Shown piece by piece: positions 45,901 through 51,900 of a stretch of DNA of 64,000 nt. Numbering within the stretch: position 1 is the stretch's first letter; every line of letters starts with the position of its first letter. Source of the stretch: an uncultured Gammaproteobacteria bacterium (GTDB lineage Bacteria; Pseudomonadota; Gammaproteobacteria; UBA6002); contig CAWFQC010000024.1 in the NCBI GenBank assembly GCA_963817645.1, positions 102,256 to 166,255 on the forward strand, given 5' to 3'. The position numbers are program-made.

Positions 45901-48900
45901 AAATAGGAATAATTAACTTTCCAGCACTAAAAATAAAACTCTTAAGACGCTGCCAGGTTTGTCTTACTAGTACTGCTAAAGTTGGCAAGTGATAGGCTGG
46001 CAGCTCTAAGACCAATGGCGTAAGATCCCCTTTTAACATAGTCTTTCTTAAAATAAAGCCTGTTAATACCGCAGCAATCATGCCAATGAAATACAACATG
46101 AAAACAATATTCTGACCACCCGCAGGAAAAAAGGCGGCTGTGAACACGGCAAATATAGCTAAACGAGCACCACAAGACATGAAGGGACTCATCAGGATAG
46201 TTAAGGTACGATCTCGTGGGTCCTCTAGGGTTCTGGCCGCTAAAATAGCAGGCACATTACAACCAAATCCGATGATCATAGGAACAAATGACCTACCAGG
46301 TAAGCCGACGGTCCGCATGAAACGGTCAATTACAAATATAGCTCTTGCCATATAGCCACAACTTTCCAAAAATGCCACAAAAAAGAACATGCCACCAATG
46401 ATTGGGATGAAGGTGATTGTTGTATTTATACCTCGACCAAAACCTGCGGCCAATAAGGCAATAATCCAGTTAGGTGCATGAATAGAAAAGAGAAGCTGCG
46501 TCAAACCACTTACAAAAAGTGCATTTGAGCTGATATCAAAAAAATCTTGAAAAGCGCCCCCCAAATTAATTGCAAATAGAAACATCAGATACATGACTGC
46601 AAAAAAAATAGGAATGCCTAAAAAGCGATTCAAAATTATTTTATCGATGCGCTCGGTGAAAGGGGTATTCACTGTTTCTTGAATAGCAACAGCCGCAGTT
46701 ATTTGATGCGCATGGGTATAGATAATATCTGCAAAGATAATATCTAAATCTTCTTGAAATACCCCTTCCAGATGTTTTTTCAATTCGGATATTTTTAATG
46801 TGAGAACAGGTGAAAATTTTTTTTCCGAAAAATCAAGATCCTGTAAGGCTTGCTGCGAAAGCCACTGCGAACAAAAGTTATAGGCAGGTAGTTCTAGCGC
46901 AATATCCGAAGCTAGGTTGGCTATAGCCTTTTTAAGTGAATCAGGATAAGTTATGTTAGATTTTCTCGGAAAATTCTGACCAGTTAATTTTGAAATAATC
47001 TTTTTTAATTCCGTAATACCTGTTCCCTTATTTGCAATTAACCCACAAACAGGACAACCGAGCCTTTTTTGCAATGCATTTAAATCTAACTTGATACTTC
47101 GTTTGTTAGCAATATCCATCATATTAACAGCAACCACTAATGGAATCTCCATGGTTAGCAGTTGCAATGTTAGATACAAATGCCTCTCTAAATGGGCAGC
47201 ATCAATAATGTTAACAATAATATCGGCTTGCCCAGAGAGGATATAATCACAGGCAATCTGCTCATCGATTGCTTGATGTTTGGAAGAAGTGGAAAGTTGG
47301 TAGATGCCAGGTAAATCAACAACACTTATCTGAGTTTGTTGAAAATTACATTGCCCTATTCTGCGCTCTACTGTTACTCCAGGCCAATTGCCTACTTTTT
47401 GGAATGATCCGGTGAGCGCATTAAACAATGTGCTTTTGCCACAGTTAGGATTCCCAATAAGACTGATGGTCACTGCCGTCATTTTATATTTTTTCCAGTT
47501 TTAAAATGGAAGCTTCATTCTTTCGCAAGCAAATTGAAAAGCCTCTAATACTTATTTCAATAGGATCACCAAAAGGAGCTATACCGATGACCTTTACCTC
47601 AGTTCCTGGTGTCAACCCCATGATCAGTAACTTTCGTCTATAAAAATTTTGGCCGCCTGCAAAATAACCAATAATTTTAGCTCTCTCACCTAAATTTAAA
47701 TCGCCTAAAGAAACCATAACACCTCCAAAAAAATAGGTAGGTAAACAGTATTATCCCAAAGCGTTCTTAAGGTGTCAATGTAACTGAGAATCATTCTCAT
47801 AACTGTTATTATTTTTAAATGGGGGGGAATACGACAAGTTACAGTAAATTACCGGAATTTTAACGAAGTTATGATTGGCGTAACAATTCATTATTATCTT
47901 AAATAACGTCAGTTCGACGAATCTAAGCAGAGCTAGAGTGGATTAGGGCCCCTGCCATTAAGTAAAAGTCTTCGCTCCTTGCCGTCGTCCCGCGGCTTGT
48001 CCGCAGGTTCCTGGATCCCGCGGACAAGCCGCGGGACGACGGCAGTAGAGATACATATCCTTAACTTATAATATGGCAGTGAGATTATATCCCTCCGCCT
48101 AATCCACCCTACCTCTGCTTAGATTCGTCGAACTGACGTTAAATAATCAGCTCTTCCGGAATTTCTGTGGTATTTTAAAAAAATCCCCCTTAATCCCCCT
48201 TTTTTAGAGAGGGAAACTCCTGTCAACCACGGGAATTCCGGAAGAGCAATAATCTTAGGCATGAACAGGGTGAAAAAAAAATGAAAGGGTATACGCTGAT
48301 AGAGATTTTAATTACATTATTGTTAATTGGCATTCTCGCAGCTACTGCGATACCTATCTTTCAGATACCAACACTCAAAACACGGCAAACAATTGTGAAA
48401 GCAAACTTGCTAGAGTTAGCAACAGCCTTAGAGCAGCACCATTCTCTTAATGAAAGCTACGAAAACTTTACTATCCCAATTCACCTAACAACAGTCAAAG
48501 GCTATAAGCTGAGCATTAAAGCCAATAAAGAGAATTTTCTGCTGGCTGCAATCCCTATTGCAGCCCAAAGTGAGGATCCTTGTGGTATCTTCTCTCTAGA
48601 TCAAGAAGGGAATAAAACAATAAGCGGTAAAGGAGATGTAAATGAATGCTGGTAAAAATTTGCTAAGTAAAATACATGCTTATCCGAAAAGTACCTGTAG
48701 ATTAGTTTTTATTTTAGCTGTATCTCCATGGTTGCACTTGCAGCAGCCCCCTCTCCCGCGCAAAAAAGTTTTAAGAAACAATAAGCTATTGCGGGAGAGG
48801 GTTGGGGTCAAACTCTGCTTCCAGCTTTTCCCTCACCCCAACCCTCTCCCGCTGGTAACTTATTGATTCTATGAAAATTAGAGCGCGGGAGAGGGGGTAG

Positions 48901-51900
48901 CTGCAAGTGCTACTATGAGGCTGTTTGCTCACTAAAAGACGTCAGTTCGACGAATCGAAGCAGAGGTAGAGTGATTAGGGCCCCTGCCATGATCTGCCTA
49001 ATATTAGGCGGCATCCCTATGCTGAACTTCCTTCTTAATTTTGCTGCCCAATTTCATTTTGGTAATTTTTAAGTCGTAAGCATTTTGTAGTTTTAACCAA
49101 AACTCAGCACTTGTTCCAAAAAATACCGAAAGTCTCAACGCTGTGTCAGTTGTTATCGAGCGTCGACCATTTAATATTTCAGTGATTCTATTTGTAGGGA
49201 CATGAAGTTTTTCCGCAAATTTATTTGCAGATAATTTCAGCTCTTCTAGCTCATCTTTTAAAATTTCACCCGGATGTATGGGTCGCATTTTATTCATTGT
49301 CGTCACTCCTAATGATAATCAACTATCTCAACGTCATGGGCTTCATCATTTATCCATTTAAAACATATACGCCACTGAAGGTTAATTCGTATGCTAAATT
49401 GTCCCTTCTTATTACCGCGCAATGCTTCAAAATGGTTGCTTGGTAAATATTTCAAATCATCCAAACAAGTTGCCTCATCGAGAATTTGCAGTCTTCGCTC
49501 AGCTTGTTTTTGAAATACTTGCCATTGTTTTACTCTTTTTCCTAGATAGAAATCTTCAGTAGCTTTATTTTTAAATGTCCTAATCATAAAATAATTATAA
49601 TAGATTTTACGCTTTACGTAAAACATAAGTTTTGTCCAATGAATGCCGGTAAAAATTTGCTAAGTAAAATGCATGCTTATCCGAAAAGTACCTGTAGATT
49701 AGTTTTTATGATATTCTTCCCTGTTTTTTAGAGCATGGAGTATGTGTGGCATTTGCGTCCCGATTGAGACACAATTAATAATAGTACTAAGAGGGTTATA
49801 TATTATGAGCAAAACAGCTTATGTCAGAGCAAGGATAGAGCCTGAATTAAAAATGAAAGCGGAGGCTATATTCGATGAGCTTGGTGTTACAGCCACTCAG
49901 GTCATTACTATGCTCTATAAACAAGTTTCAAGAAAACATGAGATACCGCTTGATCTAAATTTACCTAATAGAGAGACAGAAAAAGCTATTGATGAGGCTA
50001 AGAAAGGTCAAGATATTGTAACTTGCAAAGATGCTGACGATTTGTTTGATAAATTGGGTATATGATGCTTACCCCTATCTACAAAAAGAAATTTGAAAGA
50101 GATTTAAAGCGGGTATCTAAGCGTGGAAAGTCTATTGAAAAAATAAAGACTGTAATGCGCCGATTAATTGAAGAAAAAACTTTGGAGGCAAAATATTGCG
50201 ATCATCCATTAAGAGGCAAACATGTAGACACAAGGGAGTGTCACATTGAGCCGGATTGGCTTTTAATCTATATGCTTCAAAATAATTCCAGATTTTTACA
50301 CTTAATGGCAGTGCCACTACGTCGTCCCACTGCCATTAAGTTAAGCAATCTGTCGTCCGGTGATGGTTTGATCACGGAATCTAGGGAAGTGCCCCTATCC
50401 TGGATCCCGCGAACAAGTCGCGGGACGACGTAGTGAGAGCTAATTGACGACAGGCCCTAGCTCTGGCAGTCACTCTGATCTATTTGAATAGTAAGTTCGC
50501 ATTTTACATAACGGCAGGGTTAAAAAAGCAAATAGTCAACACTATAACTATAGTTTAAACTTCAACATCAAACTATTTGCGTTAGAATCATCAAACTTCT
50601 CATATAATGAATCATGTCGTTGCCTTTCATGAGTAACCCAAATTTCTTGCACCCATTCATTTTCAAACGATATGTCTCCCTCTGGAGACATAATTTCAGT
50701 AAGTAAGCTAAACACACATTGTGCATATGTCTCACTTGATGCTCTCGATTCTGCTTTGGGATAGCCAGAGACGTTTCTAATAGAGATACCCTTTTCAACG
50801 GTAATAGTTTGCTCACACATGGTTCCGGCAACATTGCCCCCGTTACTTGCTGCAAGATCAACTACAACAGCATTGTGTGGTAAAAATCTTAAACTTTCTT
50901 CATCAATTAATAAAGGCGCTTTTTTTCCAGGTGTCCTTGCTGCTGTAACTACAAGTGTTGCTTCAATCAGATATGGCTTAATAAAATCTATCTGTTGTTC
51001 AGCAGTGGGTAAGACGTGATATGTTATTCCAGCAGCCTCTAACTCAGATCGGTGATTCTCTTTTCTACCAAGCAACTGAACTGGAATCTTATATTTTAGT
51101 CCCTCAAACGCAGCGCTCATTCCCGCGGCCCCAGTACCAATGACTGTTAGCTTTGCTGGTTTCTCTCCTTGATAATGTTTTAAGGCATCATGAAATGCCA
51201 ATCTACCCGCAATACGGCTCATTGCTGCCTGTGCGTTTTTTGAATCAAGGATAGAGATGCTTTTAAATAAATCAAATGATAGCGTTGTTAACCCTAACTC
51301 TTGCCAAGTAGCAATATGATTATCAGCCACGAATGGAAATAAAAATCCTAACATAGCCGTGTTTTCATGAAAATGTTCATTTTCCAGGAGCTCTCGTTCT
51401 TTGCTCGGACGGAGAACTCGTACAATAAACGTATTGGCAGGAAATCCTGATGCTGTTAAGGAAAATAGTTTCGCACCCGCATTTATATATTCAATATTTG
51501 TGAATCCTGCATTCAATCCGGCATCTGCTTCAACGAGTACTCGATAGCCTTTATCTACTAAGATGCCTACGATTTGAGGTGTTAAAGCAACACGTTTTTC
51601 TTCGTAGAGGGTTTCCCTAACTACAAGAATTTGTTTGAAATGCATTATTGCCTCTTTAGCGCTGTTTACGCCTCAAATTATCATCGATAGCACAAATCAA
51701 AACAGAATGAGAATGAGAATGAGAATGAGAATGAGAATGAGAATGAGACCAGGATAATTGTCTCGACAGTGTTGAGACAATGTCTCGATCAGGAAATGAT
51801 TTGGCAAACTTGATCAATATCTCACTTATTCTTTTAATCCCCCATTTCTTAATTCCCTAGGCAATGCAAAGACAATATTCTCTTCACTGCCTTTAAGTTC

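What the first reader, a model, noticed from the sequence alone, without database searches (positions are those of the whole stretch)
48642..49700. higBA cassette plus repeats inserted at the 3' end of the pilin gene, bracketed by a 75-bp direct duplication
atgaatgc(t/c)ggtaaaaatttgctaagtaaaat(a/g)catgcttatccgaaaagtacctgtagattagttttta occurs at 48642-48715, where it holds the pilin stop codon, and again at 49627-49700. Between the copies lie a family-B repeat, a D arm and the COG3549/COG3093-type higB-higA pair.

This looks like a site-specific or duplicative insertion of a mobile TA cassette. The insert has no integrase, which suggests mobilisation in trans or repeat-mediated recombination.
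Basis: seen in the sequence. Interest (0 to 1): 0.55.

Follow-up and report, generated by a model that had tools for sequence, protein, structure and literature searches.

The report
Pilin-end/IS-end junction duplicated around higBA
A real 72-base direct repeat brackets a higBA toxin-antitoxin operon next to a pilin gene, but each copy is the pilin gene's tail fused to the tip of an IS1595-type transposable element, so it looks like a leftover of ordinary local recombination in a repeat-littered, decaying genome, not the footprint of a mobile toxin-antitoxin cassette.

Summary
The duplication is real: 72 nt, 70/72 identical, at 48641-48712 and 49638-49709. Copy 1 holds the last four pilin codons and the stop. 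Between the copies lie a family-B palindromic MITE, a solo D arm and an intact higB-higA operon with its own promoter and operator.

New finding: the right half of each copy (from 48676/49673, ATGCTTATCCGAAAAGTACCTGT) is the terminal inverted repeat of an IS1595-family insertion sequence. The same 23-mer ends 984-bp elements that encode a DDE_Tnp_IS1595 transposase and make 8-bp target duplications, at about 50 different sites in metagenomes.

Copy 1 runs straight on into the family-B MITE. Copy 2 is a truncated copy of that junction (about 36 nt pilin flank plus about 36 nt element end), wedged between higBA and a relB-yafQ' pair.

The conserved higBA module (about 49004-49628) sits in three other genomic contexts; the one checked has no flanking repeats.

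The 72-mer has no attC-like fold and no Rfam match. The window has no recombinase, no transposase and no inverted partner IR.

Best reading: general (homologous or illegitimate) recombination made the repeat. No close relative exists in the databases, so no empty site could be examined. Ordinary; modest interest.

The parts
48281..48655 (+). Type IV (ComP/PilE-like) pilin gene, 124 aa. Its last 4 codons and stop lie inside repeat copy 1.
   Evidence: PF16732 ComP_DUS 6e-09 and PF07963 N_methyl; TIGR02532; second Cys of the C-terminal pair is encoded at 48647-48649.
48641..48712 (+). Repeat copy 1 (72 nt): 35 nt of pilin end and 3' flank, then the IS1595-type terminal IR, then 14 nt.
48676..48698 (+). 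IS1595-family terminal inverted repeat (ATGCTTATCCGAAAAGTACCTGT), outer end at the left, continuous with the family-B MITE.
   Evidence: Identical 23-mer ends elements in 47 of the 48 metagenome loci of the 20-mer scan (L043 is a chance hit) and L001; 50 distinct outside flanks; flanks a DDE_Tnp_IS1595 transposase in L022 and L032; 8-bp TSD.
48704..48937 (.). Family-B palindromic MITE (arms 48727-48788 / 48856-48917). Its left end overlaps the last 9 nt of copy 1. Its right terminal IR is missing and a D arm sits there.
48933..48990 (+). Solo, truncated arm of the D-family repeat.
   Evidence: 91.5% to 47900-47958, inverted match to 48098-48139.
49004..49297 (-). higA antitoxin (97 aa from the ATG; the mechanical ORF starts at a GTG at 49306).
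   Evidence: TIGR02607 107 bits against cutoff 47.7; 88% identical to the HigA of L050 over 97/97 aa.
49309..49587 (-). higB toxin (92 aa; the 105-aa ORF from 49626 is an over-extension).
   Evidence: PF05015 5.8e-16; most of the 120 listed homologues are 92 aa, best 88% identity.
49594..49623 (-). higBA promoter-like site (TTTACG-17-TATAAT), overlapped by the palindrome TTTTACG-N5-CGTAAAA (49605-49623). This is the upstream end of the conserved higBA module (49628).
   Evidence: Best promoter match in the region, 10/12; the sequence is conserved in L050, L052 and L056, and homology stops at 49627/49628.
49638..49709 (+). Repeat copy 2 (72 nt): a truncated copy of the pilin-end/IS-end junction (IR at 49673-49695), wedged between higBA and relB-yafQ'. 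It would read N-E-C-R-stop.
49806..50065 (+). relB/dinJ-type antitoxin (the ORF can be read from 49742).
   Evidence: PF04221 8e-18; TIGR02384.
50062..50289 (+). yafQ-type toxin, cut after about residue 76 by a MITE (50289-50460) that replaces the C-terminal end.
   Evidence: PF15738 matches profile positions 4-77 of 88; PDB homologues align only to residue ~82; the MITE is 96-97% identical to 30060-30175 and 59813-59930.

Best explanation
The 72-nt repeat is a duplicated junction fragment, not an attachment site or a transposon target duplication.

Shown:
- An IS1595-family element, now represented by the family-B MITE, sits 20-21 nt downstream of the pilin stop codon. Its terminal inverted repeat starts at 48676.
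- The repeat unit is about 35 nt of pilin end and flank plus about 37 nt of that element's tip.
- Copy 1 continues into the MITE.
- Copy 2 stops 36-37 nt into the element and is followed by unrelated sequence.
- higBA is a self-contained module of about 620 bp (promoter/operator, higB, higA). The same module occurs at 78-85% nucleotide identity in three other genomic contexts; the one checked has no flanking repeats.

Inferred:
- After the element had inserted, the pilin-end/element-end junction was copied about 1 kb downstream by general recombination, not by a dedicated recombinase.
- The most likely route is a roughly 1-kb tandem duplication of [48641-49637], followed by a deletion. The deletion would have removed the second palindromic MITE and the second higBA down to the relB-yafQ module.
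- The alternative route is a single-crossover (Campbell-type) or homology-facilitated illegitimate recombination with DNA of a sibling strain that carried a different allele downstream of the same pilin/IS junction.

The repeat itself probably has no function. The locus is a small toxin-antitoxin and MITE islet in a genome with many pseudogenes.
For: - IR identity. The 23-mer ATGCTTATCCGAAAAGTACCTGT is present in both copies and nowhere else in the window. It is the terminus of elements in 47 of the 48 metagenome loci hit by the 20-mer scan (L043 is a chance match) and in one Francisellaceae MAG, with 50 different outside flanks. In L022 and L032 two inverted copies bracket a 312-aa PF12762 DDE_Tnp_IS1595 transposase. 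L032 (984 bp) and the 179-bp MITE in L048 have perfect 8-bp target duplications.
- Continuity. Family-B homology to 22837-22932 (89%) starts at 48704, inside copy 1, and crosses the 48712/48713 boundary. The AGTTTTTAG/T motif is on three of the six B ends. The right end of the 22.9-kb B copy carries an IR-like AAAAGGAACTGTAAATT next to it (15/17; p about 0.003 against window background).
- Copy 2 has sharp, non-homologous borders on both sides.
- B and D repeats are native multi-copy families of this genome, so the 'insert' was not imported as one foreign cassette.
- higBA module limits of 49021-49628 come from homology to L050, L052/53 and L056/57. L050 has no flanking repeat longer than 17 nt.
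- No recombinase or transposase was found in the 42 of the window's 51 ORFs of at least 100 aa that were scanned, including every gene in 45-52 kb. There is no transposase remnant.
- Precedents: single crossover with a short homologous stretch gives 109-950-bp flanking duplications in E. coli (PMC3240628). HFIR has been proposed for arrays that keep orphan gene 3' ends (PMC5361080).
- A second, independent structure of the same kind (nrdA 5' end, 12566-12770 vs 15669-16087, 95%) lies in the same window.
Against: - No empty site, donor allele or intermediate could be observed. The order and type of events (tandem duplication plus deletion, or inter-strain recombination) rests on parsimony.
- Both routes need at least two events.
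- The repeat is almost centred on the IS end, and copy 2 lies within 10 nt of the higBA module boundary. Neither fact is predicted by the model.
- The link between the other B-family copies and the IS1595 IR is weak: two of the other five ends score at p about 0.1, two at background level, and only one at 0.003.
- The two copies differ at 2 of 72 positions. This fits either age or a diverged donor and does not discriminate.
Confidence: 0.55

Rival explanations
1. A discrete mobile unit [B repeat - D arm - higBA] integrated at the pilin 3' end through a site-specific recombinase supplied in trans. The 72-nt repeats are attL/attR, and the element carries a replacement pilin 3' end.
For: Direct repeats of 97% identity flank the insert, and one overlaps a gene's 3' end so that the gene stays intact. 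This is the classical look of integrase-made islets. The second copy would still encode N-E-C-R-stop. HigB has closer relatives elsewhere (88% aa, 85% nt) than FeoB does (73% aa), so higBA is horizontally mobile.
Against: Half of the 'att' is an IS1595 terminal IR. The left part of the insert is continuous with copy 1 as one native MITE. No integrase lies in the insert or in the 42 of the window's 51 ORFs of at least 100 aa that were scanned. The same higBA module in three other contexts has different neighbours, and the one checked has no flanking repeats. The 72-mer has no fold or dyad symmetry.
Confidence: 0.1
2. IS1595 transposase-driven event. The higBA segment is a passenger of an IS1595-derived cassette (MIC, or one-ended transposition) mobilised in trans, and the repeats are element ends.
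For: Both copies carry a perfect IS1595-type IR. MITE derivatives of this IS exist (L048). L001 has a solo IR of the same C-ATGC variant next to HicAB and a resolvase.
Against: The two IRs are in direct, not inverted, orientation, and no inverted partner exists within 10 mismatches of 30. About 35 nt outside the IR are duplicated too, which transposition does not do. This IS makes an 8-bp TSD. There is no transposase or remnant in the window. Sequence after copy 2 shows no significant similarity to IS interiors.
Confidence: 0.04
3. A one-step templated patch. During replication or repair near the large B palindrome, a polymerase switched template and copied 72 nt from 1 kb upstream into the gap between higBA and relB.
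For: A single event would explain the sharp borders on both sides of copy 2. A long palindrome that could stall forks lies 15 nt from the source segment (I1).
Against: There is no useful microhomology at either junction. Such long templated insertions are, to my knowledge, rarely documented in bacteria.
Confidence: 0.08
4. The repeat is functional: a regulatory site or a small ORF (MNAGKNLLSK[I/M]HAYPKSTCRLVF...) kept in two copies.
For: Both copies start an ATG ORF (74 aa and 30 aa).
Against: The ORFs diverge immediately after the repeat, and the 74-aa ORF has no Pfam hit. The 'HAYPKSTC' part is simply the IS IR. There is no Rfam hit and no structure. The higBA promoter lies outside the repeat.
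Confidence: 0.02

Closest known systems
IS1595-family insertion sequences and their MITE/solo-end derivatives
   Same: The 23-nt core of both copies is identical to the terminal IR of 984-bp elements that encode a PF12762 (DDE_Tnp_IS1595) transposase and make 8-bp target duplications. A 179-bp MITE with the same ends exists.
   Different: Here there are only two ends, both in the same orientation, with no transposase and no recognisable 8-bp duplication. One end continues into a palindromic MITE whose other copies have degenerate ends.
Chromosomal type II toxin-antitoxin operon higBA (HigB RelE-fold toxin / HigA HTH antitoxin)
   Same: Toxin-first gene order, 92-aa PF05015 toxin, 97-aa TIGR02607 antitoxin, promoter overlapped by a palindrome. 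The module is 78-85% identical in DNA to solitary higBA pairs in three other genomic contexts.
   Different: Nothing unusual in the operon itself. Only its surroundings (MITE debris and the 72-nt repeat) are particular.
Flanking duplications made by single-crossover (Campbell-type) or homology-facilitated illegitimate recombination, and remnants of tandem duplications
   Same: Host sequence is repeated in direct orientation on both sides of extra DNA, with no dedicated recombinase. Duplications of 109-950 bp were produced this way in E. coli (PMC3240628). Orphan 3' gene ends left by proposed HFIR are described in V. cholerae T6SS arrays (PMC5361080).
   Different: The repeat here is shorter (72 nt), and the event cannot be reconstructed because no donor or empty allele is available.
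Integrase-made genomic islets with att repeats at a gene's 3' end, and integron cassettes (TA cassettes in Vibrio superintegrons)
   Same: A direct repeat overlaps a gene 3' end, and the cargo is a TA operon.
   Different: No integrase, no attC-like hairpin. Half of the repeat is IS sequence, and the insert is not discrete.

Membership tests
IS1595-family element end | Terminal inverted repeat identical or near-identical to that of elements encoding a DDE_Tnp_IS1595 transposase | tested here: met
   23/23 identity to the IRs that flank the PF12762 transposase in L022 and L032; about 50 independent insertion flanks.
IS1595-family element end | Two ends in inverted orientation bounding the element | tested here: not met
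   Only two matches in the window, both on the + strand; no inverted copy within 10 mismatches of 30.
IS1595-family element end | 8-bp target-site duplication | tested here: not met
   Reference elements have 8-bp TSDs (AAAAGTTG in L032, GTTCGCTT in L048). In the window the right end of the MITE is missing, so no TSD can be found. The 72-nt repeat is not a TSD of this family.
IS1595-family element end | Transposase gene or remnant | tested here: not met
   tblastn of the L022 transposase against the window gives a best E-value of 0.38. No transposase domain in the 42 of the window's 51 ORFs of at least 100 aa that were scanned.
Type II TA system HigBA | HigB-like RelE-fold toxin domain | tested here: met
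   PF05015, 59.2 bits against cutoff 27; 88% identity to a protein named toxin HigB-1 by JGI.
Type II TA system HigBA | HigA HTH antitoxin encoded immediately downstream of the toxin (reversed order) | tested here: met
   TIGR02607, 106.8 bits against cutoff 47.7. higB stop at 49309 and higA ATG at 49297, same strand.
Type II TA system HigBA | Toxin activity neutralised by the antitoxin; autoregulated promoter | not testable with these tools
   Only a promoter-like site (10/12) overlapped by a palindrome, conserved in homologous loci.
Integron gene cassette | attC site: imperfect inverted repeats that fold as a hairpin in single-stranded DNA | tested here: not met
   The 72-mer folds at -1.9, -1.5 and -0.8 kcal/mol (copy 1, copy 2, minus strand), with z-scores of +0.75 to +1.36, i.e. 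worse than shuffles.
Integron gene cassette | IntI integrase and attI nearby | tested here: not met
   No integrase domain in the 42 of the window's 51 ORFs of at least 100 aa that were scanned. The rest of the genome is not available.
Integrase-made islet with att duplication at a gene 3' end | Direct repeats flank the insert and one overlaps the gene end | tested here: met
Integrase-made islet with att duplication at a gene 3' end | Site-specific recombinase in or next to the insert | tested here: not met
   The insert holds only higA, higB and repeats. None in the 42 of the window's 51 ORFs of at least 100 aa that were scanned.
Integrase-made islet with att duplication at a gene 3' end | Discrete insert whose ends coincide with the repeat borders; empty site in relatives | tested here: not met
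   MITE homology crosses the copy-1 border. An empty site is not testable, because no close relative exists.
Recombination-made flanking duplication (tandem duplication remnant / Campbell-type / HFIR) | Direct repeat of resident sequence, sharp non-homologous borders, no dedicated enzyme or site structure | tested here: met
Recombination-made flanking duplication (tandem duplication remnant / Campbell-type / HFIR) | Observable precursor or donor allele | not testable with these tools
   The genome is a singleton in all collections. The only other record (L059, run ERR11561019) is the same sample and stops at 47928.

The most novel reading that the evidence does not exclude
Toxin-antitoxin operons act as hard stops for deletions in this decaying genome and so 'fossilise' the remnants of local duplications. 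In one 64-kb window, both non-MITE, non-tandem dispersed duplications among the 20 repeat families listed (of 25 found) leave a truncated gene-end copy right next to the promoter side of a TA operon. The pilin-end copy lies 10 nt from the higBA module and directly against the relB-yafQ module. The nrdA 5' copy lies 13-37 nt from the vapB start. Alternatively, TA modules in this lineage could spread by a still unknown mechanism that drags or duplicates adjacent gene ends.
Probability: 0.12. Interest if true: 0.45.

Novelty: new member of a known kind. Interest (0 to 1): 0.22.

Why it matters
Little changes biologically. The pilin gene is intact, higBA is a standard self-contained TA operon, and the repeat is most likely a scar.

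The case is useful as a caution. A direct repeat that overlaps a gene end and brackets a TA pair looks like an att site, but here half of it is the tip of an insertion sequence.

The work also yields a small catalogue item: an IS1595-family element (984 bp, 8-bp TSD, IR AATGCTTATCCGAAAAGTACCTGTGA) with MITE derivatives. Its end is shared by a Legionellales/Coxiellales-like genome, a Francisellaceae MAG and a heavily infested metagenomic organism.

The repeated closeness of truncated duplications to TA operons is a weak lead for the idea that TA loci shape where deletions stop.

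Tried and rejected
- attC or terminator structure of the 72-mer: none.
- Known RNA family: none. The only Rfam hits are generic miRNA-like matches to MITE palindromes, all below their gathering scores.
- Small-ORF reading: no support.
- Other copies of the 72-mer or of the IR in the window: none.
- Genome-wide copy search: the window's genome is not in genome contigs or metagenome contigs. The scans returned other organisms only, which is what revealed the IS. A viral scan was empty.
- Empty-site search: the pilin and HigB are singletons at 90% identity, and the best pilin relatives are 36-39% identical. 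Look-ups of the pilin, HigA and P0010 found nothing. The FeoB relative L051 (67%) has no synteny: there is no pilin or TA next to feoAB. L059 is the same sample and ends in the D repeat.
- Idea that the sequence after copy 2 is the transposase-proximal interior of an IS, suggested by a MAFFT alignment: not significant against window background.
- A weak tblastn hit of the transposase C-terminus at 49715-49783 is on the wrong strand, E = 0.7.
- A resemblance of the IR to Hin/Gin-type crossover half-sites, recalled from memory, was dropped once the IS identity was clear. The half-sites would in any case be in direct, not inverted, order.
A larger ancestral duplication cannot be excluded.

Full report
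**Observation.** The window contains two copies of a 72-nt segment, at 48641-48712 and 49638-49709. They are 70/72 identical, and their starts are 997 nt apart. A 55-nt core matches exactly twice and never in 100 dinucleotide-preserving shuffles. The second is reported 11 nt (start) and 9 nt (end) too far left, and the length is 72, not 75. The borders are sharp on all four sides, and no more of the pilin gene is duplicated. Copy 1 carries AAT GAA TGC TGG TAA, the last four codons and stop of a 124-aa ORF (48281-48655). That ORF is a type IV pilin (PF16732 ComP_DUS, PF07963, TIGR02532). The second cysteine of the usual C-terminal pilin pair is encoded inside the repeat, so the left part of the repeat is genuine pilin sequence.

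**Content between the copies.**
- A family-B palindromic repeat lies at 48704-48937. It is 87% identical to 37624-37834 and 89% to 22837-22932.
- A solo D arm lies at 48933-48990, 91.5% identical to 47900-47958.
- higA (TIGR02607, 107 bits) and higB (PF05015) are on the minus strand.
- Most of the 120 listed HigB homologues are 92 aa, so higB starts at 49587, not at 49626.
- HigA is 88% identical over its full 97 aa to the HigA of locus L050.
- The best promoter-like site in the region (TTTACG-17-TATAAT, 49622-49594, minus strand) lies just upstream of higB. It is overlapped by the palindrome TTTTACG-N5-CGTAAAA (and direct reading).

Downstream of copy 2 lies a second TA pair, relB/dinJ (49806-50065) and yafQ. 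The toxin is cut at about residue 76 by a MITE.

**What the repeat is made of.** One scan of 185,579 reference genomes with a 23-mer from the repeat did not return the window's own genome. It returned a Francisellaceae MAG contig (L001), where the match stands alone next to hicAB and a resolvase. A scan of metagenome contigs with the 20-mer core returned 48 loci, 47 of them genuine element ends (L043 is a chance hit of the 20-mer only). Most are about 100 nt from contig ends, which is the signature of a multi-copy element.
- Lined up, the genuine hits share ATGCTTATCCGAAAAGTACCTGT and differ completely outside it, with 50 distinct flanks. An A precedes it in 49 cases and a C in two (L001/L005); the window's two copies also have the C.
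- In L022 and L032 two inverted copies 958 nt apart bracket a 312-aa protein with the PF12762 DDE_Tnp_IS1595 domain. That protein is 31% identical to plasmid genes annotated as IS1595-family transposase.
- The 984-bp element in L032 and a 179-bp derivative in L048 have perfect 8-bp target duplications.

So the right half of each 72-mer, from 48676 and 49673, is the terminal inverted repeat of an IS1595-family element. Its outer end faces the pilin gene.

**Relation to the family-B repeat.** Homology of the 48.7-kb B copy to the 22.8-kb copy begins at 48704, nine nucleotides inside repeat copy 1. It runs across the 48712/48713 border. The motif AGTTTTTAG/T is found on three of the six B ends, including opposite ends of different copies in inverted orientation, so it is element sequence and not a target duplication. 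The right end of the 22.9-kb copy carries AAAAGGAACTGTAAATT directly before it (15/17 to the IR; p about 0.003 against window background). The other old ends are too degenerate to score. Family B is therefore best read as a MITE with IS1595-type ends.

Whatever its origin, copy 1 is continuous with the B element. Copy 2 contains the first 36-37 nt of that element and then breaks off into unique sequence. Copy 2 is thus a secondary, truncated copy of the junction 'pilin end / element end', made after the element was in place.

**What the higBA 'cassette' is.** HigB has relatives at 83-88% identity, while the best FeoB relative is 73%. The TA pair is therefore horizontally mobile. In L050, L052/53 and L056/57 the pair sits in three different chromosomal neighbourhoods with no recombinase next to it. 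DNA homology to the window (78-85%) runs from 49627/49628, just upstream of the -35 hexamer, to 49021-49053 near the higA stop, and no further. L050 has no flanking repeat longer than 17 nt. The unit that travels is therefore the bare operon of about 620 bp. The B and D pieces beside it are native multi-copy repeats of this genome.

**Exclusions.**
- The 72-mer does not fold (z-scores +0.75 to +1.36), so it is not attC-like.
- It has no Rfam match.
- 42 of the window's 51 ORFs of at least 100 aa were scanned, including every gene in 45-52 kb; none has an integrase, transposase or resolvase domain.
- There is no transposase remnant and no inverted IR partner.
- Sequence after copy 2 is not significantly similar to IS interiors.
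- Transposition by this IS cannot explain the repeat, for three reasons. The two ends are direct. About 35 nt outside the end are duplicated. The family makes 8-bp duplications.

**Most likely history.** The steps are inferred.
1. An IS1595-type MITE inserted 20-21 nt after the pilin stop.
2. D-type repeats and higBA accumulated downstream.
3. Either a roughly 1-kb tandem duplication starting 15 nt before the pilin stop was followed by a deletion that removed the second palindrome and the second higBA, or a circular or linear fragment from a sibling strain recombined through the shared pilin/IS junction, with one illegitimate joint.

Both routes are general recombination and both have experimental precedent. 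Single crossovers with short homology gave 109-950-bp flanking duplications in E. coli (PMC3240628). HFIR has been proposed to explain orphan gene 3' ends in V. cholerae arrays (PMC5361080). The two mismatches between the copies fit either age or a diverged donor. I could not discriminate, because the genome is a singleton. The pilin and HigB have no cluster mates. The only other record, L059 from run ERR11561019, is 100% identical to 42826-47928 and breaks at the D repeat. The nearest FeoB relative with context has no synteny.

**Context and a loose end.** The window carries several other TA-type genes: Gp49/HTH at 6811-7442, vapBC at 11880-12553 and AbiEi at 20385-21203. It also has broken nrdA, nrdB and groEL genes and many MITE families, as in a decaying host-associated genome.

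It also holds a second structure of the same type. The nrdA upstream region plus its first 48 codons occur twice, at 12566-12770 and at 15669-15716 + 15923-16087 (95%). Three unrelated genes lie between the copies, and the truncated copy lies 13-37 nt from the vapB start. In both cases the truncated copy abuts the promoter side of a TA operon, and the pilin-end copy is squeezed between two TA modules. This may be chance. It may also mean that deletions stop at addiction modules. It remains unexplained.

**Verdict.** The interpretation as a mobile TA cassette with a 72-bp att site or target duplication is not supported. The structure is a recombination scar made of a pilin tail and an IS1595 end. 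All components belong to known kinds, and the interest is low to modest.

Noticed in passing
window 12566-12770 and 15669-15716 + 15923-16087: Second direct duplication of a gene end. The nrdA upstream region plus its first 48 codons occur twice (95%), about 3.3 kb apart, with DUF2269, epimerase-DoxX and DUF2269 genes between the copies. The truncated copy lies 13-37 nt from the start of vapB (vapBC 11880-12553). The full copy has since acquired a MITE plus about 115 nt (about 15717-15922).
   Followed up: partly
window 15943-19856: nrdA is split into at least 7 ORF fragments (306, 80, 95, 66, 58, 60 and 72 aa), and nrdB seems frameshifted at its start (18835-19059 / 19047-19856). A 288-aa GroEL fragment lies at 23653-24519. 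ileS and feoB are intact, and L059 matches the window 100% over 5.1 kb, so these look like real pseudogenes, not assembly errors.
   Followed up: partly
window 50062-50460: The yafQ-type toxin of the relB-yafQ pair is truncated at about residue 76 by a MITE (50289-50460) that is 96-97% identical to copies at 30060-30175 and 59813-59930. The C-terminal end of the toxin is replaced, so the toxin is probably inactive.
   Followed up: partly
L022 570-1553, L032 788-1771, L048 500-678 (metagenome contigs, mostly assembly JACCDN01): An IS1595-family element of 984 bp (IR AATGCTTATCCGAAAAGTACCTGTGA, 8-bp TSD, 312-aa transposase whose stop codon lies in the IR), at high copy number in one metagenomic organism (about 35 contig-end hits). 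A 179-bp MITE derivative also exists. The C-ATGC variant of the IR is shared by the window and a Francisellaceae MAG (L001/L005).
   Followed up: partly
L001 3657-6440: The Francisellaceae MAG contig carries a solo IS1595 IR next to hicA-hicB, a serine resolvase/invertase and, judging only from the ORF sequences, a DUF4160/DUF2442-like pair. It looks like a plasmid or mobile region.
   Followed up: no
window 6811-7442, 11880-12553, 20385-21203, 41692-42168: Further TA-type genes: Gp49(HigB-like)/HTH pair, vapBC (PIN plus antitoxin), an AbiEi antitoxin-like gene and a 158-aa HTH_3 protein. That is a high TA density for 64 kb.
   Followed up: no
window 48150-48247 (also 20047, 37979, 53294, 60216): Another MITE family (GCTCTTCCGGAATT...CCCCC...AATTCCGGAAGAGC hairpin) sits immediately upstream of the pilin gene's start and recurs at four other sites. 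It could supply or disturb the pilin promoter.
   Followed up: no
window 51704-51748 and 60511-60657: A hexanucleotide tandem repeat (AGAATG)n lies between the AlaDH/PNT-like gene and ispH. A 21-nt tandem repeat (5 or more units) lies inside the 594-aa ORF 60480-62264, which has no Pfam match.
   Followed up: no
window 37061-37528 / 37590-37870: The SpoU/rlmB-type methyltransferase ORF is only 155 aa (the SpoU domain stops at profile position 59 of 142), and a family-B MITE lies about 60-100 nt upstream of its start codon; the domain loss is at the opposite, 3' end of the ORF.
   Followed up: no
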